A stretch of DNA of 64,000 bases, from IMG/VR virus record IMGVR_UViG_2974502414_000001, one strand, 5' to 3'. The position numbers and the translations under genes are program-made. The notes under the pieces are model-generated. The model did no database searches. It saw only the letters and a program-made list of their open reading frames with translations, and was not told the origin of the DNA. The stretch's first letter is position 1, and the number at the start of each line of letters is the position of its first letter. This DNA comes from a virus (lineage: Duplodnaviria; Heunggongvirae; Uroviricota; Caudoviricetes; Herelleviridae). Shown here one piece after another: positions 828-57,784 of the stretch.

Positions 828-896
828 GTGTCTATATATATAGACGGTTGGAATAATATCAGACCGCAAAAATAAATACACTAGGATATTATTCCC
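828..896. repeat. 16-bp perfect palindrome GTCTATATATATAGAC (828-843) followed by 11-bp inverted repeat GGAATAATATC / GATATTATTCC (846-856 / 886-896)
   Basis: read directly; intergenic, downstream of iteron array. Confidence 0.6.
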
Positions 897-914
897 AGTG
901 TATTATATAATTTT

Positions 915-1253
915 TTATAGAATATTTATAACATTGTATTCAAATTCATTTACTTCATGTTGTGATTTAATTAAATTTTTAATTAATCCGTTTTGTGTTT
1001 TATACTCTTTTATTAGTTTTTCATTTTCTATAATTAAATTATTAAATTCTTCTTTTGTTGTTTCCTCATCTACATAAAATTTACTTTCATATATTTCATA
1101 ATATTTTTTATCTGTTCCGCCATCTAAATCATCTGATATTTGATAATTTTTGAATATAATTTCTTTTGTTTCTAATTCATTTACTAATAATTGTGATTTT
1201 GCATATTGTAATACATCTTCATTGTCCCACATTGGAATATAGTTTATTTTCAT
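915..1253 (-). CDS. hypothetical protein (112 aa), reverse-oriented gene inside early region
   Basis: ORF track; RBS aaaaggatttgatttaaATG shared with other early genes; own promoter at 1339-1367. Confidence 0.55.
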   Translation of the reverse strand: MKINYIPMWDNEDVLQYAKSQLLVNELETKEIIFKNYQISDDLDGGTDKKYYEIYESKFYVDEETTKEEFNNLIIENEKLIKEYKTQNGLIKNLIKSQHEVNEFEYNVINIL

Positions 1254-1338
1254 TTAAATCAAATCCTTTTCTTATAATTTTTTTATATAATATTTGTAGA
1301 AGCGGTTGGGGTTTGTCCCTTGCCTTACTACACTTTAT

Positions 1339-1367
1339 ATATTACAGTATAGTTATTCAGAAGTCAA
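1339..1367 (-). promoter_or_regulatory. sigma-A-like promoter TTGACT-17-TAATAT for ORF 915..1253
   Basis: reverse complement of 1362-1367 = TTGACT, of 1339-1344 = TAATAT, 17-nt spacer. Confidence 0.5.
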
Positions 1368-1461
1368 TACTTTTGAGTAACTTTTTTTAAATTCTTTTTT
1401 CTTCTATATAATAGTAGTTTTTAGCCCTAAAAATGTTTTTAAAAGAATTTGCATTTTCTTA

Positions 1462-1490
1462 TTGACTTTATTATCATATGGTAGTAATAT
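1462..1490 (+). promoter_or_regulatory. sigma-A-like promoter TTGACT-17-TAATAT upstream of ORF 1564
   Basis: TTGACT 1462-1467, TAATAT 1485-1490. Confidence 0.5.
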
Positions 1491-1563
1491 AAAGGTACAG
1501 CAAGGGAACAGCAACAAGATATTAGAATTATATAAAAAAATTATTTAATTGGAGATGATTTAA

Positions 1564-1872
1564 ATGGATGTAAAAGAAATTGCAAATACTATAATGGAGT
1601 TGTGGCAAATGGACGGCTACAGATGTGCAGAACCTCCATTATATGAAAGCACACTAAACCACACACGCACACACACGGCGTTAATTGTTTCTATTAATGG
1701 AAACTATGACACAGTGCAGATGTTCCGCAAAACGCCTATAATGAGCATGAGAGGGCAAAGCCAACCGGCTAGCATGTTAGTTAATGTGATTGACGATGTA
1801 ATTATAATCGTATATGAAAATGTAGTGTACGGAGTTCAAAACAAAGAAATAAAATTTATTGAAGAAATTTAA
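1564..1872 (+). CDS. hypothetical early protein (102 aa)
   Basis: ORF track; RBS ggagatgatttaaATG; locally GC-richer codons. Confidence 0.5.
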   Translation: MDVKEIANTIMELWQMDGYRCAEPPLYESTLNHTRTHTALIVSINGNYDTVQMFRKTPIMSMRGQSQPASMLVNVIDDVIIIVYENVVYGVQNKEIKFIEEI

Positions 1873-1971
1873 AAATAGGGGTTGCAATCCTCAAGCATCT
1901 ATAGTAATATAATAGGTGTAGGGGATAGCAACACACCTTAAAAAACTTTTTAAAAAAGTTAAAGAAAAGTG

Positions 1972-2000
1972 TTGACACCTTACAAGATACATGTTATTAT
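1972..2000 (+). promoter_or_regulatory. sigma-A-like promoter TTGACA-17-TATTAT
   Basis: TTGACA 1972-1977, TATTAT 1995-2000. Confidence 0.6.
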
Positions 2001-2068
2001 TAGTATAGAAGTTAAGACAAGCCACATAGCAAATAACGAAATTAAATAAAAAAATTATAGAATAGGAT

Positions 2069-2365
2069 TTGATTATTATGACAAACAAAAATTACTTATA
2101 CGAAGAAACTCACACAGTACAAGGGCAAGACATTACGGCTTTCAGAATTCCAAATGACGCAAACGGCAACCCACGTTATGTAGTGAATTTCAGGGACTTA
2201 GGTATCGGATTATGGGACTATGACAACATCAATAAACTTTACGGATTTAATAAATATCGTGCCAAATGGTTTGGCGGTGGTGTAGTATTCCAAAGCTATA
2301 ATATAGAAGATACATTAAATTTTGCACTAGATAATGTTAAAGAAATAGAAGCGGTTAAGAATTAA
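2069..2365 (+). CDS. hypothetical early protein (98 aa), N-terminus MIIMTN paralogous to ORF 4833
   Basis: ORF track; shared initiation region aggatttgattattATGacaaa with ORF 4833. Confidence 0.55.
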   Translation: MIIMTNKNYLYEETHTVQGQDITAFRIPNDANGNPRYVVNFRDLGIGLWDYDNINKLYGFNKYRAKWFGGGVVFQSYNIEDTLNFALDNVKEIEAVKN

Positions 2366-2374
2366 AACCGCTTC
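2348..2374 (+). terminator. hairpin GAAGCGGTT-loop-AACCGCTTC overlapping stop codon of ORF 2069..2365
   Basis: 9-bp stem, 9-nt loop; weak T-run after, so could be an RNA structure or binding site rather than a terminator. Confidence 0.4.
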
Positions 2375-2414
2375 TGAATTAAATAAAAAATTTATATAAA
2401 AAGGATATGATAAT

Positions 2415-2606
2415 ATGAAATTTAAAATAGAAAAAAATAATAGTGATATAAAAACTTTATGGAATTTAGCAAAAAATGGATATATGAGCTATCAAACTGT
2501 ACACAATATATTTAAAAATGAATCAGATGAATTTATTATATTTAACAGTAAACAAACTTATAATAAATTTATGAAATTAAGATATAATAGAAGTGCAATA
2601 CAATAA
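2415..2606 (+). CDS. hypothetical small protein (63 aa)
   Basis: ORF track; RBS aaaaaggatatgataatATG. Confidence 0.4.
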   Translation: MKFKIEKNNSDIKTLWNLAKNGYMSYQTVHNIFKNESDEFIIFNSKQTYNKFMKLRYNRSAIQ

Positions 2607-2714
2607 TATAAAAAAAATTATACAATTCCCTAGGATTAGATTTCTAGGGATTTTTATTTATTTTAATTTATATAAAAAAATTATTTAATAAATAAGTTAG
2701 TGTAAAATTGACTA

Positions 2715-2744
2715 TTGACAAGGTTGTATTTTTTATGGTATAAT
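2715..2744 (+). promoter_or_regulatory. near-consensus sigma-A promoter TTGACA-18-TGgTATAAT (extended -10) with no ORF downstream
   Basis: TTGACA 2715-2720, TGG 2736-2738, TATAAT 2739-2744. Confidence 0.65.
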
Positions 2745-2899
2745 GAAGTGAAGACCTTTTTTAGTATAAAAAAATTATTATATAAAAAATTTATATTAAA
2801 TGATTTTAGAAACGCTCTTTCCCGGAACCTCTTCTCTTATATAGCGGACACGTAGGCTCCTTACCGCTTTCTTACTATACTTATAGTATACTATAGAAA

Positions 2900-2933
2900 A
2901 AAGAAAAGGTCAACCCTTTTCTTTAATCTTTTT
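2900..2933 (+). terminator. intrinsic terminator (10-bp stem AAAGAAAAGG/CCTTTTCTTT, loop TCAAC, T-run)
   Basis: stem 2900-2909 / 2915-2924, T-run 2926-2932; overlaps stop of reverse HNH ORF. Confidence 0.7.
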
Positions 2934-3411
2934 TATATTTTTTTATAATTCTTCTAACGGTTATTTCACTTATATTATATTCCTTTGCTAACATAGGTTG
3001 AGTGTACTTTCTAGGCTTGTATTTGCTTGCTATGGCTTTTCTTTCATCTTCTGTTAATGCATAACCCCTATTATACCTATTGAAAGTATTGTCTTTATGG
3101 TGCCTTTTATTGTGTTCTGACGGGCTAATACATTCTAGGTTATCAATACAATTATTTTGTTTGTTACCGTCTATATGGTGTACATGGTTTGATTTAATAA
3201 AATCATTGCCAAAATATTCATATACAAGTCTATGCACCATGTGTTTTTTATTATTGACCCTTACGGTTAAATATCCGTCACGGTCTTGATGTACTTTACT
3301 CAACCTATCATTTATTTTTACCCTACCTAAATTAGAAACATAAAAATTATATTTATTAAAGTATTCTTTTTTTATAGGTTTCCAAATTTCATTAATTTTA
3401 TTTTCAACCAT
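2923..3411 (-). CDS. HNH homing endonuclease (NUMOD4-like N-terminus YVSNLGRVKI, HNH core HHIDGNKQNNCIDNLE) inserted antisense among early genes
   Basis: ORF track 162 aa; motif reading; own consensus promoter 3444-3472. Confidence 0.85.
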   Translation of the reverse strand: MVENKINEIWKPIKKEYFNKYNFYVSNLGRVKINDRLSKVHQDRDGYLTVRVNNKKHMVHRLVYEYFGNDFIKSNHVHHIDGNKQNNCIDNLECISPSEHNKRHHKDNTFNRYNRGYALTEDERKAIASKYKPRKYTQPMLAKEYNISEITVRRIIKKYKKD

Positions 3412-3443
3412 TTTTTTACTCCTCCTTTTTTGGTATCACTTCC

Positions 3444-3472
3444 ATTATATAATAATTCGGTCTTAATGTCAA
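3444..3472 (-). promoter_or_regulatory. consensus sigma-A promoter TTGACA-17-TATAAT driving HNH ORF
   Basis: reverse complement of 3467-3472 = TTGACA, of 3444-3449 = TATAAT. Confidence 0.65.
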
Positions 3473-3517
3473 TAGATAAATGTAAAAAAGTTTTTTAAAT
3501 TAATTTCATTAAATCTA

Positions 3518-3546
3518 TTGACTTTAATATCATTATAGTTTAATAT
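3518..3546 (+). promoter_or_regulatory. sigma-A-like promoter TTGACT-17-TAATAT
   Basis: TTGACT 3518-3523, TAATAT 3541-3546. Confidence 0.5.
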
Positions 3547-3578
3547 AAAGGTATACCAAATGAAAGGGATTGAACAAA

Positions 3579-3737
3579 ATGATAAAATTCAAATGGAAAA
3601 ACAAAACAATTAAATCAACTCAAAAAACGGATAACATTCTATTACTTATTATAGGTGGTTTAGTTGCAACAATCACACCTAAACTTGTAAACTGGTTTTT
3701 ACTACTACAAGATAATATAAATATTTTTTTAAGATAA
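3579..3737 (+). CDS. small membrane protein (52 aa, below ORF-track cutoff)
   Basis: manual translation MIKFKWKNKTIKSTQKTDNILLLIIGGLVATITPKLVNWFLLLQDNINIFLR; one TM segment; promoter 3518 upstream. Confidence 0.35.
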   Translation: MIKFKWKNKTIKSTQKTDNILLLIIGGLVATITPKLVNWFLLLQDNINIFLR

Positions 3738-3740
3738 CTA

Positions 3741-3769
3741 TTGACAACCTAGAAACAACATGTTAATAT
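3741..3769 (+). promoter_or_regulatory. sigma-A-like promoter TTGACA-17-TAATAT
   Basis: TTGACA 3741-3746, TAATAT 3764-3769. Confidence 0.55.
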
Positions 3770-3797
3770 TAAGATAACAAATAAATCAATAAAGGAA

Positions 3798-3938
3798 ATG
3801 ATAAAAATGAAAAAAATCACAACAACTTTAAACTTAATCGGCATGAAAAATAATGAAAGGTTTACAGAAGAGTTAAAAAACTACCGTCAAGATGTTACTT
3901 TCTTGAAAGCAAATAAAATTGTAAAATATTCAAAATAA
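3798..3938 (+). CDS. small hypothetical protein (about 46 aa, below cutoff)
   Basis: manual translation MIKMKKITTTLNLIGMKNNERFTEELKNYRQDVTFLKANKIVKYSK; RBS aaaggaaATG; stop TAA 3936-3938. Confidence 0.4.
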   Translation: MIKMKKITTTLNLIGMKNNERFTEELKNYRQDVTFLKANKIVKYSK

Positions 3939-3941
3939 GGC

Positions 3942-3970
3942 TTGACAACTTAAACACTACATGTTATTAT
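3942..3970 (+). promoter_or_regulatory. sigma-A-like promoter TTGACA-17-TATTAT immediately followed by hairpin 3987-4006
   Basis: TTGACA 3942-3947, TATTAT 3965-3970. Confidence 0.55.
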
Positions 3971-3986
3971 TAAGGTACAAGGTAAG

Positions 3987-4006
3987 GGAAGCGGTCAACC
4001 GCTTCC
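3987..4006 (+). other. hairpin GGAAGCGG-tcaa-CCGCTTCC carrying the GAAGCGGT motif, no T-run
   Basis: read directly; 8-bp stem; between tandem promoters. Confidence 0.5.
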
Positions 4007-4035
4007 AACCTAAATAAAAAAGTTTAAAAAAACTA

Positions 4036-4064
4036 TTGACAGTCACTTGAAACCATGATATTAT
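4036..4064 (+). promoter_or_regulatory. sigma-A-like promoter TTGACA-17-TATTAT
   Basis: TTGACA 4036-4041, TATTAT 4059-4064. Confidence 0.6.
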
Positions 4065-4094
4065 TAAGATAACAAAAAACAAACAGAAAAGGAA

Positions 4095-11312: not shown

Positions 11313-11345
11313 TAAAAAAACACCTATTAAATTAATAGGTGTTTA
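11313..11345 (-). terminator. intrinsic terminator hairpin ACACCTATT-aaatta-AATAGGTGT flanked by A/T runs
   Basis: read directly; near-identical hairpin reused at 12292. Confidence 0.6.
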
Positions 11346-11925: not shown

Positions 11926-12243
11926 TTAATTTATTGGTTTAAACCACAATTTACTCTTATCACTTGGTTCTGTTTCACTAACTACGAAAGAGTTAGAATC
12001 AATGTTTAAAGTATTAAAAACAATTTCTTGTTTGTCTTCATTACTTTTTGTTGTAAATTCGGGAACATCTGTTAATATAGACTCTTTACCATTAATAGTC
12101 CATGATATTTTAAAAGACCCTTGGCTATACACTGTATTCGGTGTCAGTTTTTCAATTATAATTTTAGCGGATGCACCTGTAATTTTTTCTGAAGATTTTA
12201 ATAATTTACCTTTGGAATCATATAAGTTTAATGTTCTCTCCAC
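11926..12243 (-). CDS. hypothetical protein (105 aa)
   Basis: ORF track. Confidence 0.5.
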   Translation of the reverse strand: MERTLNLYDSKGKLLKSSEKITGASAKIIIEKLTPNTVYSQGSFKISWTINGKESILTDVPEFTTKSNEDKQEIVFNTLNIDSNSFVVSETEPSDKSKLWFKPIN

Positions 12244-12284
12244 AAATTTTATCTCCTTTACTATATTTTGTACAATTAATATAA

Positions 12285-12315
12285 CAAAAAAACACCTATT
12301 AGTTTAAATAGGTGT
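12285..12315 (-). terminator. intrinsic terminator ending the tRNA-Met operon transcript (hairpin ACACCTATT-agttta-AATAGGTGT plus T7 on minus strand)
   Basis: stem 12292-12300 / 12307-12315; plus-strand A-run 12285-12291. Confidence 0.7.
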
Positions 12316-12870
12316 CCGACAGAGCTCCCGTACTTAGATTACGGTTAATAATATTTTACGACAACTATATGAGACCCTCTGTCGTTGAAACTCTTGTCAC
12401 TGCGTTATTCCACAAGATATTTTAGAAGGTAGCTTGTGGAAGAAGATTGTTTTTAAAGGTACAATTAGCGTTTTTAAGCCTATTCGATACCCAGGACACT
12501 ATGTCCGTACTAACTATTACGTCAATAAAGGTTCTACGGTCTCAATTACCTACTCTTTATTGTTAAAACTAAAATTAAGCTTGAGTGCTCTAGAAGCCAA
12601 AATCAATTAATTAACTATAGATACGGAATGGAGGGGCACTACCATCCGGAGTCTACGGTCAGATACAAAGCCTCTGCCGGGCAACATACGGTATCTCTCG
12701 TACATCAGGTTGACTAGACCTTTAGAGTTTTTCACTCCTTCTCTTATAACCAGTAACTTAAGAGAAATAGGTTTTACTTAGTAGATATGAAACAATAAAT
12801 CCACATACAATATTAAATCATAGTCAAGTGATTGCACATATGTCTAACACCTATAAGTTTTTTGCTAGCC
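12316..12870 (-). ncRNA. candidate structured non-coding RNA segment (about 555 nt, locally about 45-50% GC) forming the 3' part of the tRNA-Met operon
   Basis: no ORF of 60 aa or more in any frame; several hairpins (e.g. CCGTA-atctaag-TACGG); lies between tRNA-Met and terminator on same strand. Confidence 0.3.
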
Positions 12871-12877
12871 TGGTATA

Positions 12878-12949
12878 TGGACTCTGCAGGATTCGAACCT
12901 ACAGTCAAACCGTTATGAGCGGTTGGCTTTACCTTTAAGCTAAGAGTCC
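12878..12949 (-). tRNA. trnM: tRNA-Met (anticodon CAT)
   Basis: manual cloverleaf: acceptor GGACTCT/AGAGTCC, D-stem GCTT/AAGC, anticodon stem AACCG/CGGTT with loop CTCATAA, T-arm GTAGG-TTCGAAT-CCTGC. Confidence 0.85.
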
Positions 12950-12956
12950 TAGAAAT

Positions 12957-13023
12957 ATCCTGAGAGAGGACTCGAACCTCAACGACTAGGTAGCTACATC
13001 TAGCCAATGCCATTACTCAGGAT
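12957..13023 (-). tRNA. tRNA-like element or degenerate tRNA (about 67 nt)
   Basis: canonical T-arm (TGAGG-TTCGAGT-CCTCT) and acceptor (TCCTGAG/CTCAGGA); a standard D-arm and 7-nt anticodon loop could not be folded; anticodon unresolved. Confidence 0.35.
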
Positions 13024-13203
13024 TGCTAGTAACGCTAAATAGAATTATAACGTTACCGTAGACCTTTTCTACGCTTGGTAGATAGGTAAAATATAATGAT
13101 TTCAAAGTACCCATATAGTTAGGCTCTTATTCTCATTATAAGGTTAAAAAGGCTAACTGTGTTTAGCATTATATAAGAGGCTTTAGTTAACTACTATACT
13201 AAT

Positions 13204-13232
13204 AATATACCATAAATTATACTTAATGTCAA
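13204..13232 (-). promoter_or_regulatory. promoter TTGACA-17-TATATT for tRNA-Met operon
   Basis: reverse complement of 13227-13232 = TTGACA, of 13204-13209 = TATATT; same GTCAAGTTAATTT box as the tRNA-Asp/Phe/Trp promoters. Confidence 0.5.
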
Positions 13233-13777
13233 GTTAATTTATCAATTGAATCTATAATTTTTGATGTGCTACGTATATCTGCTTCTTTACTATGTTTAAG
13301 GAGATATTTTAATTTCATTAAAAAAGAATTTTTTTCTTTTTCTATAATATCTTCTTTATCATCATATTCTGAAAACATAATGAATTCTATACCTATACTA
13401 TTTCTATTATGTGAAAACATATTTATAGAAAAAGGTGAATCAAAATTTTTATCATCTTTATTAATACTAAAGTCTTCAGTAACCTGTAAGTCATTTATTT
13501 CAGATATTTCAAAGTAACCATTAACTCTTTTAAGTTCAATATAACTATTGTATCTAAAGTAACGTTGTTCTTCTATTAACTTCTCTTTTGTTATATAAGG
13601 ATATTCATTTATGAATATAGGATTACTTGTTCCATAGTTATCTCTAATATATTCTGCATCCTCTAGGGAATCAGTATAACCTAAAATTTCATAACTTGTT
13701 GTATACACTGTATCTTCTTCCCACAAGTCATAGTCCATTTCCTCTATTTCTTCTTCTAATATATAAATTTTTTTCAT
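13229..13777 (-). CDS. hypothetical protein (182 aa)
   Basis: ORF track. Confidence 0.55.
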   Translation of the reverse strand: MKKIYILEEEIEEMDYDLWEEDTVYTTSYEILGYTDSLEDAEYIRDNYGTSNPIFINEYPYITKEKLIEEQRYFRYNSYIELKRVNGYFEISEINDLQVTEDFSINKDDKNFDSPFSINMFSHNRNSIGIEFIMFSEYDDKEDIIEKEKNSFLMKLKYLLKHSKEADIRSTSKIIDSIDKLT

Positions 13778-13780
13778 ATA

Positions 13781-13999
13781 TTACTCCCAAACCCCGATAA
13801 GATTTTTAAGCTTAGCTATAACCTCTTCTTCTGTTTGATAAGAAAATACCCCTGTAATATGTTCATAGTTACCTACAATTTCATAATCTTGTGTACCATG
13901 TTTATCTACTAAGTATGAGTTATTCATAACATTTAAACTATCTTCTGAGTAACTAAAATTTATGTTATAGTCTACTAAAAAATTAATAATATTTTTCAT
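13781..13999 (-). CDS. hypothetical protein (72 aa)
   Basis: ORF track. Confidence 0.5.
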   Translation of the reverse strand: MKNIINFLVDYNINFSYSEDSLNVMNNSYLVDKHGTQDYEIVGNYEHITGVFSYQTEEEVIAKLKNLIGVWE

Positions 14000-14194
14000 T
14001 TACATAACCTCTCCTATCGGATATTGTCCTAGCATTCTTGTTCCATTTTCATTATAAAAAGTATATTCTACTACAATAATATTCATCATATCTACATATA
14101 TAGCTTCTATATACGGTGTAATATTTTCCTCTTCTTGTATGTGTTTACCTATGATATCATATAATAATTCTGAGTGTATTCGTTTATCTCTCAT
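14000..14194 (-). CDS. hypothetical protein (64 aa)
   Basis: ORF track. Confidence 0.45.
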   Translation of the reverse strand: MRDKRIHSELLYDIIGKHIQEEENITPYIEAIYVDMMNIIVVEYTFYNENGTRMLGQYPIGEVM

Positions 14195-14921
14195 TATAGA
14201 CCTCCGTAAGGAATTCTACAGTTTTGTCTTTCAAAGATTTTTCTACTAATTCCATAGCATCTTTATAGTGTTTGATATTAGATTCATTAGACTTAAGTTT
14301 ATCTTTTACTTCTTGAATTAGGGGCTCTACTTTATTAACCAAATCTTTTTTCTTTTCAATACTTACATTGCTTCTCTTATTGTCTAATACTTCTTTTGGC
14401 ATATATTTAACTTTTGCAAAGTCTTTATAGCTAACATTTAAGTTATCTAAATCATCTAATAAATCATTATAGTATTCTAAATGATTATAGAATGTATAAA
14501 ACTTAACAAGGTCTTTACCAGTTAATTCTCCTTTTTTTAGTATATTATTAATATTACCGATAACAGAATATGCTATAGGCTTAAAATTAGCTCTAACATA
14601 AGTTAAAAATATAAAATCATCATAAAATAAATCTAAAACAGTTTTATTGAATCTAGTATTTTTAGCTTGCTCTAATTGAGCACATAAATTAAGAACATTA
14701 TCAAACCCACTTTTTAGCACTAAAGAGATAAATCTTTCTACTGCATAGTATCTTGATACTTCTGTATGCTTACTTGCTTTTTCATTATTCCTAAATATAG
14801 TATCTGATAAAGGTTGAACAACTAAACTCATGTAATCTTTATCTGAATACTCATCTGATGTTCCTTGATAAGTACTTCCAAATTCTATTGTTGATAATAA
14901 GAAACTTTTTTCTAAGTTCAT
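14184..14921 (-). CDS. predicted nucleotidyltransferase (pol-beta superfamily fold)
   Basis: 245 aa; N-terminal GSTYQGTSDEYSDKDYM fits the hG[GS]x9-13Dh[DE]h NTase motif. Confidence 0.55.
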   Translation of the reverse strand: MNLEKSFLLSTIEFGSTYQGTSDEYSDKDYMSLVVQPLSDTIFRNNEKASKHTEVSRYYAVERFISLVLKSGFDNVLNLCAQLEQAKNTRFNKTVLDLFYDDFIFLTYVRANFKPIAYSVIGNINNILKKGELTGKDLVKFYTFYNHLEYYNDLLDDLDNLNVSYKDFAKVKYMPKEVLDNKRSNVSIEKKKDLVNKVEPLIQEVKDKLKSNESNIKHYKDAMELVEKSLKDKTVEFLTEVYNER

Positions 14922-36329: not shown

Positions 36330-37426
36330 AATTATAATGCTATACCCTAACCTTACCTTAATGTATAGCAGGTTTTTATATAAGCTCGAAGCAACGATTA
36401 TTACCACTCATAACAACTATATATTAAGTGAAAGGAGGTGAAATGAACAAAACGTGGTAATTGGTACTTATATAGGAAATATGTATAATCTACAAGGAGT
36501 AAGTTATTGGTTCATAAAGGAGTGTGAACAATAAATACATGAAAGAGTGAAAGTTTACTCCCTGTAGATTCTTTTTTTAATTATCAATCAAAGGAGGAAA
36601 CTGATAATTGTTAATAATAAACTATAAAGAGGAAAATATTTATAGTCACATTCTGATATAATGCAACTAAATATCCAAGCATAACCCGTCTCACGAGGAA
36701 CCTACCTATAAGACCTGTTATTAAGTGAATCACTACGATTGACTCTATTAAGGAGCTACCTTAAGTCCATCTCACGCAATTTAAAAGGGACTTACAAACC
36801 GTAAAACGGTAATAAGTTTATTAAATAATGTGATATTAACATATTAGTTAATAACTTTCACATGGTCGAAGAAAAGTAAATTTATTTGATTACCAAATTA
36901 TTTTTATCAAATATAGCTCTTTTGAACCTGTAGATTTATGCTACTTATACTGATAACCTCTATTATCTAACACATTTCTGTGCTCCAACTACAGTTAGTC
37001 GTTACAGCGTATCTTTCTAGGATTCCGCTAAGACCCTAAAAAGAAATTAAACCCTAGCCGTTATCATACTCTACAGACCTTATAAGTAAGTACCAAGTAT
37101 ACCAATCGTATTTAACAATACTAATGACGACCCATCCTACCGATATATCTCCGATAGGTTTTGATTCGTTTGATTATCTTGTACCTTATGACTACCAAAT
37201 CATTATTCAGTCACTATGCTCAGATATTTAGTTGTATTATTTATATATTAATTATAACATAATTTTTATTACTTGTCAAGTTAATTTCAAAAAAATTATA
37301 GAAGTAGGGACGTTTACCTACTTCTATTTAATTTACACAAGGATGATAACATTGTTATTGTTTTATACTGGAAAACAATGTAATAAAAACAGTGATGTGT
37401 AAGGTATTTGTTTTATTGTTAATTAT
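36330..37426 (-). ncRNA. about 1.1-kb ORF-free leader of the tRNA-Asp/Phe/Trp transcript, candidate structured RNA
   Basis: no ORF of 60 aa or more in 36408-37481; heterogeneous GC; 13-bp inverted repeat 36487-36499 / 36563-36575 plus T-run; two consensus promoters upstream. Confidence 0.3.
37251..37279 (-). promoter_or_regulatory. consensus promoter TTGACA-17-TATAAT (proximal tRNA-operon promoter)
   Basis: reverse complement of 37274-37279 = TTGACA, of 37251-37256 = TATAAT. Confidence 0.65.
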
Positions 37427-37455
37427 ATTATAGCATATACTGATACCTTTGTCAA
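37427..37455 (-). promoter_or_regulatory. consensus promoter TTGACA-17-TATAAT (distal tRNA-operon promoter)
   Basis: reverse complement of 37450-37455 = TTGACA, of 37427-37432 = TATAAT; shares box CTTGTCAAGTTAATTT with 37267 and 13228. Confidence 0.65.
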
Positions 37456-37481
37456 GTTAATTTAATACTTTTTTTAAAACA

Positions 37482-56785: not shown

Positions 56786-57142
56786 ATGGCATCAGAAGCT
56801 AAACAAACCGTCCATACTGGTAATACCGTCCTACTTATGATTAAAGGTAAACCGGTAGGAAGAGCACAATCAGCATCAGGTCAACGTGAATACGGTACAA
56901 CTGGTGTATACGAAATCGGTTCTATCATGCCTCAAGAACACGTATACTTACGTTATGAAGGTACAATTACAGTAGAACGTTTACGTATGAAAAAAGAAAA
57001 CTTTGCAGATTTAGGATATGCTTCACTTGGTGAAGAAATTCTTAAGAAAGACATCATTGATATTTTAGTAGTAGATAACTTAACAAAACAAGTTATTATT
57101 TCATATCATGGTTGTAGTGCTAATAACTACAACGAGACATAA
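56786..57142 (+). CDS. tail tube protein
   Basis: 118 aa; immediately after sheath; recognised sequence. Confidence 0.8.
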   Translation: MASEAKQTVHTGNTVLLMIKGKPVGRAQSASGQREYGTTGVYEIGSIMPQEHVYLRYEGTITVERLRMKKENFADLGYASLGEEILKKDIIDILVVDNLTKQVIISYHGCSANNYNET

Positions 57143-57186
57143 CTTTTTTCTGCTGTGTCTCTGTACAGTGATGTATAACAAAAAAA

Positions 57187-57609
57187 CCCTTCTAATTCAT
57201 GGGAACCCTTAACAGATAATGCTGAAGGCAATCATGAGCCAAGCCTAGTAAAGTACTAGGAAGGTGCAACGACTAGAGAAAAGATAGTTTACTGTTATAG
57301 GCAGTAAATGAAAACTGAGTATCGTACATCTAAGTAGATGGAAATGGAGGGATTCCTAAAGTAACGTTTAGGAATGTGATATAGTCTAGTCTATATGGAA
57401 ACATATAGAAGGTAAGAAGTAACGACTCTTATCGTAATAATAACAGGCAGACCAATGAAATCGTAACTGAAGAAATTGAGTAGAAGAATGCTCCTTTAAC
57501 TAGAAATAGTTATAGCAAATCCCTTTAATTCATGGGAACCCTTAACAGATAATGCTGAAGGCAATCATGAGCCAAGCCTAGTAAAGTACTAGGAAGGTGC
57601 AACGACTAG
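57187..57609 (+). repeat. tandem pair of about 334-bp ORF-free modules; 90-bp near-identical cores at 57187-57276 and 57521-57609 (1 difference), each with hairpin CCTAGTA-aag-TACTAGG
   Basis: read directly; tails diverged but alignable, with compensatory hairpin GGATTCCTAAA/TTTAGGAATG vs ACACCTT/AAGGTGA. Confidence 0.75.
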
Positions 57610-57784
57610 TCAGAATGACGTACATCTAAGCAGATGGAAATAGGGGACACCTTCAATATTAAGGTGAAGATATAGTCTGAACTATATAGAAATATATAGA
57701 AGGTTCAAGAGTAGCGTTTTGAATCGTAACAAATTTGTTTCTTATTTAACAGCTAGTGATAAAGCCCGTACCTAAAGGGTTTAA

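What the first reader, a model, noticed from the sequence alone, without database searches (positions are those of the whole stretch)
12285..13232. tRNA-Met operon carries a tRNA-like element and a ~560-nt GC-elevated structured 3' region ending at a reused terminator
A minus-strand promoter (13204-13232, same GTCAAGTTAATTT box as the other tRNA operon) drives four elements in order:
- a 67-nt tRNA-like element with perfect acceptor and T-arm but no foldable D-arm or 7-nt anticodon loop (12957-13023);
- a canonical tRNA-Met-CAT (12878-12949);
- about 555 nt with no ORF in any frame, about 45-50% GC in places, versus about 30% background (12316-12870);
- the intrinsic terminator at 12285-12315.

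That terminator's stem ACACCTATT/AATAGGTGT is reused almost verbatim at 11320-11342.

The 3' region does not match tmRNA, RNase P or group I intron signatures that I can recognise. It may be a novel phage ncRNA or a tRNA-linked processing substrate. The degenerate tRNA could be a decoy or processing signal.
Basis: seen in the sequence. Interest (0 to 1): 0.6.

Follow-up and report, generated by a model that had tools for sequence, protein, structure and literature searches.

The report
Phage K lncRNA1: modular RNA operon
The region is the already published, very abundant "lncRNA1" of Staphylococcus phage K; it is a chain of separate structured RNA cassettes, two of which belong to RNA families described in other phages, which gives testable leads to its unknown function.

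Summary
On the minus strand a strong promoter (13232-13204) is followed by a leader, a 67-nt tRNA-like element (13023-12957), tRNA-Met (12949-12878), about 590 nt of GC-enriched non-coding sequence, and an intrinsic terminator (12317-12290). The terminator stem recurs at 11320-11342.

The window is 100% identical to phage K. The 3' region is the published lncRNA1/lnc001, seen in three RNA-seq studies, function unknown. So the transcript is not new.

What I add:
- **Modular, not one large RNA.** Relatives gain, lose and reshuffle the pieces independently.
- **3' module (12417-12281).** It is a DUF3800-I-type RNA: 43.4 bits against a gathering score of 44.2, and homologues in two relatives pass. 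Its P2 helix covaries. No DUF3800 gene was found nearby, in the window, or in any Staphylococcus phage record.
- **Central module (12705-12619).** It is homologous to the core of the Listeria prophage sRNAs rli62/rliG. A model built without any Staphylococcus-phage sequence finds it at 53.3 bits, E=3.7e-11. It has two covarying helices and a covarying pseudoknot.
- **tRNA-like element.** It is conserved in phage Twort with a compensatory change. The tRNAs themselves are optional at this locus.

Function remains inferred.

The parts
13204..13232 (-). Sigma-70-type early promoter: TTGACA, 17 nt, TATATT, with a TG extension
   Evidence: Consensus scan gives 11 of 12 matches plus TG. The upstream box AAATTAACTTGAC is shared with the promoters at 37275 and 37451. 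Published RNA-seq assigns lncRNA1 to the promoter upstream of tRNA-Met (PMC7698491, PMC9241854).
13024..13203 (-). 5' leader. It contains a TEG147-like hairpin at 13145-13086.
   Evidence: Rfam RF03535 gives 41.0 bits (gathering score 56.1), E=1.8e-6. The fold z-score is -3.67. The same hairpin is present in Twort and, in L007, in a different slot of the operon.
12957..13023 (-). tRNA-like element: 8-bp acceptor stem plus a 4-bp T stem with a UUCGAGU loop (a 12-bp minihelix) and one central hairpin. It has no D arm and no anticodon loop.
   Evidence: Minimum-free-energy fold. Not called by ARAGORN or Rfam. Conserved in Twort with a compensatory G-C to A-U change in the acceptor stem; only the 3' half survives in DH2.
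12878..12949 (-). tRNA-Met (CAT), with no encoded CCA
   Evidence: ARAGORN. Rfam tRNA 67.2 bits. The sequence after the discriminator A is UAUACC.
12711..12877 (-). 5' domain of lncRNA1. It includes the covarying hairpin H0, at about 12767-12738.
   Evidence: In the RNAalifold consensus on 8 Twortvirinae sequences, H0 (columns 117-146) has compensatory changes. The block is conserved at 85-99% in Kayvirus relatives and partly in Twort.
12619..12705 (-). rli62/rliG-type core motif.
- Hairpin H1: 12705-12699 pairs with 12690-12684.
- Invariant centre: UUGCCCGGCAGAGGCUUUGUAU (12684-12663), containing hairpin H2'.
- Variable hairpin H3.
- Pseudoknot: H1 loop AGAUAC (12696-12691) pairs with GUAUCU (12624-12619).
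   Evidence: Model R1, built only from Listeria-prophage-like and large-phage copies, gives 53.3 bits, E=3.7e-11, and is the only significant hit in 64 kb. H1 and H2' are 98.5% paired, with 48 double-change cells against 19.5+-2.6 in shuffles. The pseudoknot takes at least 7 different complementary forms across clades. Listeria copies are called rliG (279.6 bits) and rli62 (128 bits) by Rfam.
12455..12618 (-). Clade-specific filler segment. It is present only in K/G1-type kayviruses. Other relatives carry a different insert here, or in some cases nothing.
   Evidence: BLAST finds it in 121 records, nearly all more than 99% identical. In relatives the slot holds decayed tRNAs (L004 1744-1815 at 33.1 bits) or a TEG147-like hairpin (L007). 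In L003 and L008 there is nothing: the core abuts the DUF3800-I module.
12406..12454 (-). Module C: hairpin UUCCACAAG...CUUGUGGAA
   Evidence: Conserved as a separate BLAST block in L002, L004, L006, L007, L009, L010 and L011. It is present as a stem in the whole-RNA fold.
12281..12417 (-). DUF3800-I-type RNA: P2 helix CGACAGAG/CUCUGUCG, P3 hairpin UUAA-CCGUA-AUCUAAG-UACGG, then the terminator
   Evidence: Rfam RF02969 gives 43.4 bits (gathering score 44.2), E=5.6e-5. Homologues score 45.5 (L012), 45.4 (L006) and 42.8 (L004). P2 exists in four complementary versions in Twortvirinae. The fold z-score is -3.85.
12283..12317 (-). Intrinsic terminator (11-bp stem, 6-nt loop, U tract). It forms the 3' part of the DUF3800-I match.
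   Evidence: Terminator scan. Annotated in phage K at 13644-13665, which is window 12293-12314. The stem is repeated at 11320-11342.

Best explanation
This is the tRNA-Met/lncRNA1 transcription unit of Staphylococcus phage K.

**How the RNA is made**
- A strong early promoter makes a primary transcript of about 915 nt.
- Inferred: RNase P and RNase Z cut at the tRNA-like minihelix and at the CCA-less tRNA-Met. This releases the leader, the tRNA, and a 3' RNA of about 590 nt.
- Shown by published RNA-seq: that 3' RNA (lncRNA1) accumulates to 2% or more of phage-infected-cell reads.
- Inferred: it is stable because it is densely structured and ends in a terminator hairpin.

**What it consists of**

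lncRNA1 is not one integrated large RNA. It is a string of autonomous structured cassettes that related phages gain, lose and rearrange independently. Two cassettes are members or homologues of RNA families found in unrelated phages of Firmicutes.
- **rli62/rliG-type motif, 87 nt.** It has two hairpins and a pseudoknot. In Listeria prophages, and in some Twortvirinae, it lies within about 10 nt of a promoter.
- **DUF3800-I RNA with its terminator.** In Enterococcus and Lactobacillales prophages it is the 3' tail of a gene for a 230-aa RNase-H-like DUF3800 protein. Phage K has the RNA but no such gene.

**How it probably works (inferred)**

The cassettes most likely act in trans as protein-binding RNAs. 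My preferred reading of the orphan DUF3800-I module, at roughly 0.2-0.25, is that it binds and titrates a DUF3800-type effector that the phage does not encode.
For: **Identity**
- Window 11949-13549 is 100% identical to phage K NC_005880.2 13300-14900.
- Published lnc001 (K 13595-14229) corresponds to window 12244-12878.
- Abundance and promoter assignment come from PMC7698491, PMC9241854 and PMC11598898.

**Modularity**
- BLAST block maps of 15 relatives show independent presence or absence.
- L009 and L010 lack the DUF3800-I module, and L015 also lacks it.
- L014 lacks the rli62-type core.
- L006, L007 and L010 lack both tRNA elements.
- L007, L011 and L014 have about 300 extra nt before the terminator.

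**DUF3800-I**
- Rfam scores are 43.4, 45.5, 45.4 and 42.8 bits.
- P2 covaries: CGACAGAG/CUCUGUCG, CAACAGGG/CUCUGUUG, CAUCAAGG/CCUUGAUG and CAACAGAG/CUCUGUUG.
- P2 sits in the same position relative to P3 as in canonical copies.
- Canonical copies lie next to a Pfam PF12686 protein in 26 of the 36 non-Kayvirus viral contigs that carry the motif pattern.

**Orphan status**
- Pfam finds no DUF3800 domain in the 7 nearest ORFs.
- A subfamily HMM finds nothing in any window ORF; the best E-value is 0.8.
- tblastn finds no hit in any Staphylococcus phage record.

**rli62/rliG core**
- The independent covariance model gives 53.3 bits, E=3.7e-11.
- Covariation statistics for the two helices.
- Pseudoknot table.
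- RNAalifold on Twortvirinae finds 9 pairs with compensatory change.

**tRNA-like element**
- Fold.
- Conservation with a compensatory change in Twort.
Against: - No end-mapping data were available to me, so processing by RNase P and RNase Z and the size of the stable species are inferred.
- The window's own DUF3800-I score is 0.8 bit below Rfam's gathering score. The P1 stem is degenerate in the window copy.
- Modularity in evolution does not prove that the cassettes act independently within one molecule.
- The trans-acting or decoy idea has no host-side support. The motif pattern hit no Staphylococcus among 28 species-representative genome matches. The cognate DUF3800 subfamily hit no Staphylococcus plasmid.
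- Only 64 kb of the roughly 148-kb genome was searched with an HMM. The rest was covered only by tblastn with one query.
Confidence: 0.65

Rival explanations
1. Counter-defence decoy. The orphan DUF3800-I module is over-expressed by a strictly lytic phage. It mimics the RNA partner of DUF3800 RNase-H-like proteins encoded by hosts or resident prophages and neutralises them, as pseudo-ToxI RNA does for ToxN.
For: - In prophage-like contigs the RNA is tightly coupled to a DUF3800 gene.
- DUF3800 is repeatedly found in defence contexts: retron type VII (PMC7736814), Cas12a2/a3 accessory genes (PMC10910872, PMC13594972) and a Cas13-associated operon (bioRxiv 10.64898/2026.08.25.746378).
- The phage K copy keeps P2 and P3 under compensatory evolution without any DUF3800 gene.
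- Expression is very high from 2 min after infection (PMC11598898).
Against: - No staphylococcal DUF3800 or DUF3800-I was found in what I could search. That search was shallow: one genome per species and one BLAST query.
- The function of the DUF3800-RNA pair is itself unknown, so toxin/antitoxin logic is assumed.
- Some relatives that infect the same hosts lack the module (L009, L010, L015).
Confidence: 0.2
2. Cis-acting leader function. The rli62/rliG-type pseudoknot works co-transcriptionally at the 5' end of long or untranslated transcripts. It would act either as an RNA-polymerase-modifying antiterminator (like the HK022 put RNA) or as a 5' stabiliser against RNase J1. lncRNA1 abundance would then be a by-product.
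For: - In Listeria prophage-like contigs the motif starts about 10 nt after a TATAAT box. It lies between a small DUF722-family gene (in L060 and L062) and the HNH and terminase genes, which is the start of the late operon.
- In L004 and L015 it starts about 8 nt after the -10 element of the operon promoter.
- In larger phages it sits in or beside tRNA arrays and upstream of the large terminase subunit.
- The 22-nt centre is invariant across phages of different hosts. That suggests a conserved host target such as RNA polymerase or an RNase.
Against: - In phage K the motif is about 170 nt from the presumed RNase Z-generated 5' end and about 500 nt from the promoter.
- It is followed by a strong terminator that evidently works, because lncRNA1 is far more abundant than the downstream genes.
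- No experimental data exist for rli62 or rliG function (PMC3556495).
Confidence: 0.2
3. One integrated large structured RNA of the ROOL/GOLLD type, in which the whole 560-590 nt folds into a single architecture, possibly multimeric.
For: - Its position next to tRNA genes and its very high abundance resemble ROOL and GOLLD. The phage K authors drew the same analogy (PMC9241854).
- The whole-RNA fold is somewhat more stable than shuffled sequences, with z=-2.17.
Against: - No Rfam hit to ROOL, GOLLD, OLE or any other large-RNA family, even at E<=10.
- Relatives delete, replace and reorder internal blocks of 50-300 nt. A single tertiary architecture would not tolerate this.
- The predicted long-range 5'-3' pairings of the minimum-free-energy fold involve segments that are absent from relatives.
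Confidence: 0.07
4. An evolutionary remnant: a decayed tRNA array plus acquired 3'UTR fragments, transcribed strongly only because it follows a strong promoter, with no function of its own.
For: - The locus contains decayed tRNAs in relatives: L004 1744-1815 and L015 2245-2316 score 33 bits.
- There is a half-degraded tRNA-like element in DH2.
- The filler segment 12455-12618 is clade-specific.
Against: - The two main cassettes and the tRNA-like acceptor stem keep their helices through compensatory substitutions.
- The core motif is 80-94% identical between genera whereas the neighbouring sequence is not alignable.
- The locus is retained in all 244 records that match.
Confidence: 0.05
5. The region encodes small proteins. 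Several GenBank records annotate 3-6 'hypothetical proteins' here.
For: - Mechanical ORFs of 25-58 aa exist.
- The 42-aa sense-strand ORF reads MLPGRGFVS through the invariant 22-mer. An AUG with a GGAG about 6 nt upstream exists in some Listeria copies.
Against: - The AUG is replaced by AUA in many copies (L060, L062, L063, L064, L069, Twort).
- Synonymous third positions within the 22-mer are invariant across genera, while the changes that do occur are compensatory for RNA pairing.
- Indels between relatives are not multiples of three; one is a 29-nt insertion.
- The GTG start in phage K lies directly against its GGAG with no spacer.
Confidence: 0.03

Closest known systems
Kayvirus lncRNA1 / phage K lnc001 (Kornienko 2020, PMC7698491; Finstrlova 2022, PMC9241854; PMC11598898)
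   Same: It is the same locus: 100% identical sequence with matching coordinates after an offset of +1351. [quoted passage not shown]
   Different: As far as I read them, those papers treat it as one 528-635-nt lncRNA likened to ROOL/GOLLD. They do not report the modular make-up, the DUF3800-I and rli62/rliG relationships, or the tRNA-like element.
DUF3800-I RNA motif (Rfam RF02969; Weinberg et al. 2017, PMC5737381)
   Same: - P2 helix enclosing an internal loop.
- A UUAA-P3 hairpin with the loop AUNUAAG.
- The P2 3' strand starts 3 nt after P3.
- An intrinsic terminator follows immediately.
- Bit scores lie at the family threshold.
   Different: - No DUF3800 gene nearby or detectable anywhere in the phage.
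- About 13 extra nt in the internal loop.
- The closing pair of P3 is flipped (C-G instead of G-C).
- P1 is weak.
- It is embedded as the 3' end of a longer ncRNA in a strictly lytic myovirus, not in the 3'UTR of a prophage gene.
Listeria prophage A118 sRNAs rli62 (RF01486) and rliG (RF02415)
   Same: - A shared core of about 90 nt with an identical 22-nt centre.
- The same H1 hairpin, H2' hairpin and variable H3 hairpin.
- The same pseudoknot between the H1 loop and the 3' tail.
   Different: - The phage K copy does not reach either Rfam threshold and gives no hit at E<=10. L012 scores 37.9 bits against a gathering score of 83.
- The Listeria RNAs are promoter-proximal leaders or sRNAs at the start of the late operon of temperate siphoviruses. 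In phage K the core is internal to a ncRNA.
- The function of all of them is unknown.
Phage T4 tRNA-region stable RNAs (species 1 and 2, RNA C and D); also ROOL and GOLLD RNAs next to phage tRNA genes (my own knowledge; ROOL/GOLLD also via PMC5737381 and PMC9241854)
   Same: Abundant, stable, non-coding RNAs co-transcribed with or adjacent to phage tRNA genes. They are presumably released by the tRNA-processing enzymes, and their function is unknown.
   Different: There is no sequence or structure match. ROOL and GOLLD are single large architectures, whereas this RNA is a chain of exchangeable cassettes.
tRNA-like processing signals such as mascRNA in MALAT1 and mitochondrial tRNA punctuation (my own knowledge)
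   Same: An acceptor/T-arm minihelix of 12 stacked base pairs with a canonical T loop. That is the part of a tRNA recognised by RNase P, RNase Z and the CCA-adding enzyme. Here it sits between two RNA segments that need to be separated.
   Different: Cleavage has not been shown here. The element is absent from several relatives that still make the ncRNA.

Membership tests
DUF3800-I RNA (RF02969) | Score at or above Rfam's gathering threshold (44.2 bits) | tested here: inconclusive
   The window scores 43.4 bits (E=5.6e-5 in a 1.3-kb search), which is 0.8 bit short. Orthologous copies score 45.5 (L012) and 45.4 (L006), which pass, and 42.8 (L004).
DUF3800-I RNA (RF02969) | P3 hairpin preceded by UUAA, with the conserved loop U-N-UAAG | tested here: met
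   UUAA-CCGUA-AUCUAAG-UACGG at about 12352-12332. The 21-nt pattern TTAASCGTANTNTAAGTNCGS retrieves canonical DUF3800-associated copies together with kayviruses.
DUF3800-I RNA (RF02969) | P2 helix enclosing P3, maintained by covariation | tested here: met
   An 8-bp P2 occurs in four complementary versions among Twortvirinae. Its 3' strand starts 3 nt after P3, as in canonical copies (3-4 nt). Its 5' strand lies 36 nt before UUAA, against 21-24 nt in canonical copies, so there is an insertion.
DUF3800-I RNA (RF02969) | Rho-independent terminator immediately 3' of the motif | tested here: met
   The terminator at 12317-12290 begins 1 nt after P2. In L007, L011 and L014 the terminator is displaced by about 300 nt.
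DUF3800-I RNA (RF02969) | A DUF3800 (PF12686) gene encoded nearby. This is the association that named the motif. It is not part of the RNA model. | tested here: not met
   - None among the 7 flanking ORFs (Pfam).
- None in the 64-kb window or in L001-L015 with a cognate-subfamily HMM.
- None in Staphylococcus phage records by tblastn.
- A distant DUF3800 homologue in the unsearched 84 kb cannot be excluded.
rli62 / rliG (RF01486 / RF02415) | Score at or above Rfam's gathering thresholds (83 and 55 bits) | tested here: not met
   There is no hit in the window at E<=10. L012 scores 37.9 bits and L092 scores 31.3 bits for rli62. I therefore treat the window copy as a homologue of the shared core, not as a member of either Rfam family.
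rli62 / rliG (RF01486 / RF02415) | Shared core: H1, the invariant UUGCCYGGCAGAGGCUUUGUAUCUG centre with H2', H3, and the pseudoknot between the H1 loop and the 3' tail | tested here: met
   - Model R1, built without Twortvirinae sequences, gives 53.3 bits and E=3.7e-11 at 12614-12709.
- H1 and H2' are 98.5% paired, against 18-42% when the partners are slid.
- The pseudoknot is 5-7 bp in 16 of 19 distinct loop/tail combinations.
tRNA (RF00005) | Cloverleaf with D arm, 7-nt anticodon loop and T arm, detectable by ARAGORN or Infernal (applied to the 67-nt element) | tested here: not met
   Neither ARAGORN nor Rfam calls it, the latter even at E<=10. The fold has only acceptor, T arm and one central hairpin with a 4-nt loop.
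ROOL / GOLLD / other large bacterial ncRNAs | Match to the family covariance model | tested here: not met
   No hit at the gathering score over 64 kb or at E<=10 over 12100-13400.

The most novel reading that the evidence does not exclude
Phage K's most abundant early transcripts would be an RNA-based counter-defence and host-takeover array.
- The orphan DUF3800-I cassette would be a decoy or antidote for DUF3800 RNase-H-like immune effectors. These are the domain found in retron type VII and in accessory genes of Cas12a2/a3 and Cas13 loci.
- The rli62/rliG-type pseudoknot would be a previously unrecognised, widely distributed phage RNA element that acts on a conserved host machine, such as RNA polymerase or an RNase.

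This would give the first function to the DUF3800-I and rliG/rli62 RNA classes and to the kayvirus lncRNAs.
Probability: 0.15. Interest if true: 0.8.

Novelty: new member of a known kind. Interest (0 to 1): 0.45.

Why it matters
Kayviruses are leading therapeutic phages against Staphylococcus aureus. In one study their two lncRNAs together make up 27% of reads mapped to the phage genome (PMC11598898). Nobody knows what they do.

Showing that lncRNA1 is assembled from cassettes shared with prophages of Listeria, Enterococcus and lactobacilli turns a vague "lncRNA" into defined parts of 90-140 nt. Each has a predicted fold, a testable protein partner (a DUF3800-type RNase H) or a testable target (the transcription or decay machinery), and natural knock-outs among sequenced relatives.

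It also informs work on the DUF3800-I motif itself, because the RNA can be maintained by selection without a DUF3800 gene in cis.

Tried and rejected
- **Known large or catalytic RNAs.** I searched Rfam at the gathering score over 64 kb and at E<=10 over the locus. Nothing matched apart from tRNA, DUF3800-I and TEG147.
- **The 67-nt element as a fifth tRNA.** Rejected.
- **My own covariance model for DUF3800-I from canonical copies.** Abandoned. The MAFFT alignment was out of register and RNAalifold recovered only P3. I replaced it with a per-sequence P2 search.
- **A DUF3800 gene in the phage.** I tried Pfam on the neighbouring ORFs, a subfamily HMM on all window ORFs, and tblastn against 50,697 phage records. 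All were negative. A broader profile could not be built offline.
- **Host-side DUF3800 or DUF3800-I in Staphylococcus.** The genome pattern scan and the plasmid tblastn found none. This weakens the decoy idea but does not kill it.
- **A second copy of the rli62-type core in the window, for example in lncRNA2.** None was found.
- **A conserved micro-ORF (MLPGRGFVS) as the reason for the invariant 22-mer.** Rejected, because the start codon is not conserved and synonymous sites are invariant.
- **Literature on rli62/rliG and Teg147.** No function has been reported.
Full report
**What the window is.** The region 12200-13300 is 100% identical to many Staphylococcus Kayvirus genomes. Window 11949-13549 aligns without a mismatch to phage K NC_005880.2 13300-14900. 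Phage K coordinate therefore equals window coordinate plus 1351. All features below are on the minus strand.

**Check of the observation.**
- The promoter is TTGACA, 17 nt, TATATT with a TG extension, at 13232-13204.
- Its upstream box AAATTAACTTGAC recurs at 37275-37287 and 37451-37463.
- ARAGORN and Rfam confirm tRNA-Met(CAT) at 12878-12949 and nothing else tRNA-like here.
- The 67-nt element 13023-12957 folds into an 8-bp acceptor stem, a 4-bp T stem with the loop UUCGAGU, and one central hairpin.
- GC in 100-nt windows is 34-46% between 12300 and 12750, against 19-31% in most flanking windows with a few coding windows at 32-34%.
- Mechanical ORFs of up to 58 aa exist, so 'no ORF' is not literal. 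None looks real.
- The terminator is at 12317-12290. Its stem occurs exactly twice in the window; the second copy is at 11320-11342.

**The transcript is already known.**
- Kornienko et al. (PMC7698491) describe a 570-bp 'lncRNA1' immediately after tRNA-Met. It is transcribed from the promoter of that unit and takes 2.2% of normalised counts.
- Finstrlova et al. (PMC9241854) list phage K 'lnc001' at 13595-14229 on the minus strand. That is window 12244-12878.
- A 2024 study (PMC11598898) finds that the two lncRNAs together take 27% of reads from 2 min onwards. It calls their function unknown.
- None of these papers, as far as I read them, dissects the RNA.

**It is modular.** I ran BLAST of the window locus against 15 relatives fetched from GenBank. 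The locus breaks into blocks that occur independently:
- promoter
- leader with a TEG147-like hairpin
- tRNA-like element
- tRNA-Met
- a domain of about 260 nt whose last 90 nt are the most conserved part, retained in Twort and DH2
- a 163-nt filler found only in K/G1-type phages
- a 49-nt hairpin
- a 92-nt block
- the terminator

The pattern of gain and loss among relatives is as follows.
- L006, L007 and L010 have neither tRNA element. L008 has the tRNA-like element but no tRNA-Met.
- L009, L010 and L015 lack the 92-nt block. L014 lacks the 90-nt core.
- L007, L011 and L014 carry about 300 extra nt before the terminator.
- In L004 and L015 the variable slot holds a decayed tRNA scoring 33 bits.
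- The ncRNA, not the tRNA, is therefore the constant feature of the locus. The pattern argues against a single integrated fold.

**The 3' cassette is a DUF3800-I-type RNA.**
- A permissive Rfam search hits RF02969 at 12281-12417 with 43.4 bits (gathering score 44.2; E=5.6e-5). Orthologous copies score 45.5, 45.4 and 42.8 bits.
- The P2 helix exists in four mutually complementary versions among Twortvirinae.
- P3 with its UUAA leader and AUCUAAG loop is nearly identical to canonical copies.
- A 21-nt pattern from P3 retrieved 38 IMG/VR contigs. In 26 of the 36 non-Kayvirus contigs, a 230-aa ORF lies next to the RNA, usually about 100 nt upstream on the same strand. Four of these ORFs were checked with Pfam and are DUF3800, with E-values of 1e-12 to 1e-15. 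Several sit next to lysis genes.
- This reproduces the association reported by Weinberg et al. (PMC5737381).
- In phage K there is no such gene. Pfam on the seven neighbouring ORFs, an HMM of the cognate proteins against every ORF of the window and of L001-L015, and tblastn against 50,697 phage records (only three Streptococcus phages) are all negative.
- The phage copy also has about 13 extra nt in its internal loop, and its P1 is weak.
- I therefore call it a divergent, orphan member of the family.

**The central cassette is homologous to the rli62/rliG core.**
- The 22-mer TTGCCCGGCAGAGGCTTTGTAT (12684-12663), allowed slight degeneracy, retrieved 50 IMG/VR contigs. Most are contigs of about 40 kb that resemble Listeria prophages.
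- In these, Rfam calls the site rliG (279.6 bits) or rli62 (128 bits). Both are sRNAs of prophage A118 with no known function (PMC3556495).
- Other hits lie in 73-79-kb and 141-kb phage contigs, inside or beside tRNA arrays.
- An alignment of 33 distinct copies (A1) supports hairpins H1 and H2'. They are 98.5% paired, with 48 double-change cells against 19.5+-2.6 in shuffles, and only 18-42% paired when the partners are slid.
- A pseudoknot between the H1 loop and the 3' tail appears in at least seven complementary forms: AGAUAC/GUAUCU, AUAUAC/GUAUAU, AGGUGU/ACACCU, GAGAUU/AAUCUC, GAGGUU/AACCUC, GGGGUU/GACCCC and AGGGUC/GACCCU.
- A covariance model built only from the non-Staphylococcus copies finds window 12614-12709 at 53.3 bits, E=3.7e-11. 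It is the only significant hit in 64 kb.
- RNAalifold on Twortvirinae alone recovers the same hairpins plus a further covarying hairpin at about 12767-12738.
- The window copy does not reach either Rfam threshold. I treat it as a homologue of the shared core rather than a family member.

**Context of that motif elsewhere.**
- In the Listeria-type contigs the motif starts about 10 nt after a TATAAT box. In L060 and L062 it lies just after a small DUF722-family gene. In L056 the equivalent upstream ORF had no Pfam match.
- It lies before the HNH, small-terminase and large-terminase genes, which is the head of the late operon. A118 uses an ArpU-type late activator (PMC3753634).
- In L004 and L015 the motif begins about 8 nt after the -10 element of the operon promoter.
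- This promoter-proximal habit, together with an invariant centre across hosts, suggests a co-transcriptional or 5'-end function. In phage K, however, the motif is internal.

**The tRNA-like element.** It is conserved in Twort more strongly than its surroundings and carries a compensatory G-C to A-U change in the acceptor stem. DH2 keeps only the 3' half. Eight plus four stacked base pairs with a canonical T loop equal the 12-bp minihelix recognised by RNase P, RNase Z and the CCA-adding enzyme (established knowledge). tRNA-Met lacks an encoded CCA, so RNase Z processing is expected. That processing would create the 5' end of lncRNA1 at about 12877. These processing steps are inferred.

**Mechanism and rival explanations.**
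- I commit to the following with confidence of about 0.65: a processed, stable, modular RNA whose cassettes act as autonomous protein-binding RNAs.
- For function, the orphan DUF3800-I cassette is best read as a ligand or decoy for a DUF3800-type RNase-H-like effector, at about 0.2. DUF3800 recurs in defence loci. However, I found no staphylococcal DUF3800.
- The rli62-type core may be a cis-acting antitermination or stabiliser element, at about 0.2.
- A single ROOL/GOLLD-like architecture (0.07), a functionless remnant (0.05) and small proteins (0.03) are disfavoured by the modularity, the compensatory changes and the codon-position pattern.

**Verdict.** The finding is real, and its core is already published. 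The new content is the dissection into cassettes and their family relationships. This makes the function of an unusually abundant therapeutic-phage RNA experimentally approachable.

Noticed in passing
window 36657-37217 (-), with promoter boxes at 37275-37287 and 37451-37463: The second kayvirus lncRNA (lncRNA2) is conserved as one contiguous block of about 530 nt at about 70% identity, based on the accessions' genus assignments from my own knowledge (Silviavirus-type, Sepunavirus-type) and a Mammaliicoccus phage. lncRNA1, by contrast, is modular. Rfam finds nothing in it at E<=10. It looks like a better candidate for a single large structured RNA.
   Followed up: partly
window 57131-57408 and 57472-57699 (+): Two adjacent group I introns, at 78.4 and 92.1 bits against RF00028.
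   Followed up: no
window 13086-13145 (-); L007 1794-1836; L005 1638-1692: A 60-nt hairpin resembles the S. aureus chromosomal sRNA Teg147 (RF03535): 41 bits against a gathering score of 56.1, E=1.8e-6, fold z=-3.67. In L007 the same module sits after the rli62-type core rather than in the leader. Teg147 has no known function (PMC5826253).
   Followed up: partly
L005 (Twort) 2001-2071 and 2099-2143; L013 (DH2) 2001-2125 and 2153-2197: Twort-type phages carry two tandem copies of the rli62-type core. The second copy has a G-C/C-G swap in the small GCC/GGC stem and its own matching pseudoknot pair, AGGUGU/ACACCU.
   Followed up: partly
L020 11271-12160 and similar loci (L017, L025, L031, L049 ...): In Enterococcus faecium-type prophage or plasmid contigs there is a compact cassette: DUF3800 gene (230 aa), about 100 nt, DUF3800-I RNA, terminator. 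It sits just after an ORF that looks like a lysis gene, a typical moron or defence position.
   Followed up: partly
L063 (141-kb IMG/VR contig) about 830-4065; L064, L072 and L092: The rli62-type motif lies inside an array of about 19 tRNA genes in L063. In the 73-79-kb phages it lies between tRNAs and the large terminase gene.
   Followed up: no
A1 alignment: Listeria copies such as L058, H1 loop AGGAGGUU and tail AACCUCAC: In the Listeria copies the H1 loop is a perfect Shine-Dalgarno-like sequence. Its pseudoknot partner resembles the anti-Shine-Dalgarno sequence of 16S rRNA. An AUG follows 6 nt later in some copies but is not conserved.
   Followed up: partly
L012 (phage S2G3) 3521-3643: A long, nearly perfect palindromic hairpin gives spurious hits to several miRNA precursor families on both strands.
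   Followed up: no
L004 1744-1815; L015 2245-2316: Decayed tRNA genes lie within the homologous ncRNA operon of other Twortvirinae. They have a good D arm and T arm but a broken anticodon arm and score 33 bits. One is annotated in GenBank as 'tRNA-OTHER, possible pseudogene'.
   Followed up: partly
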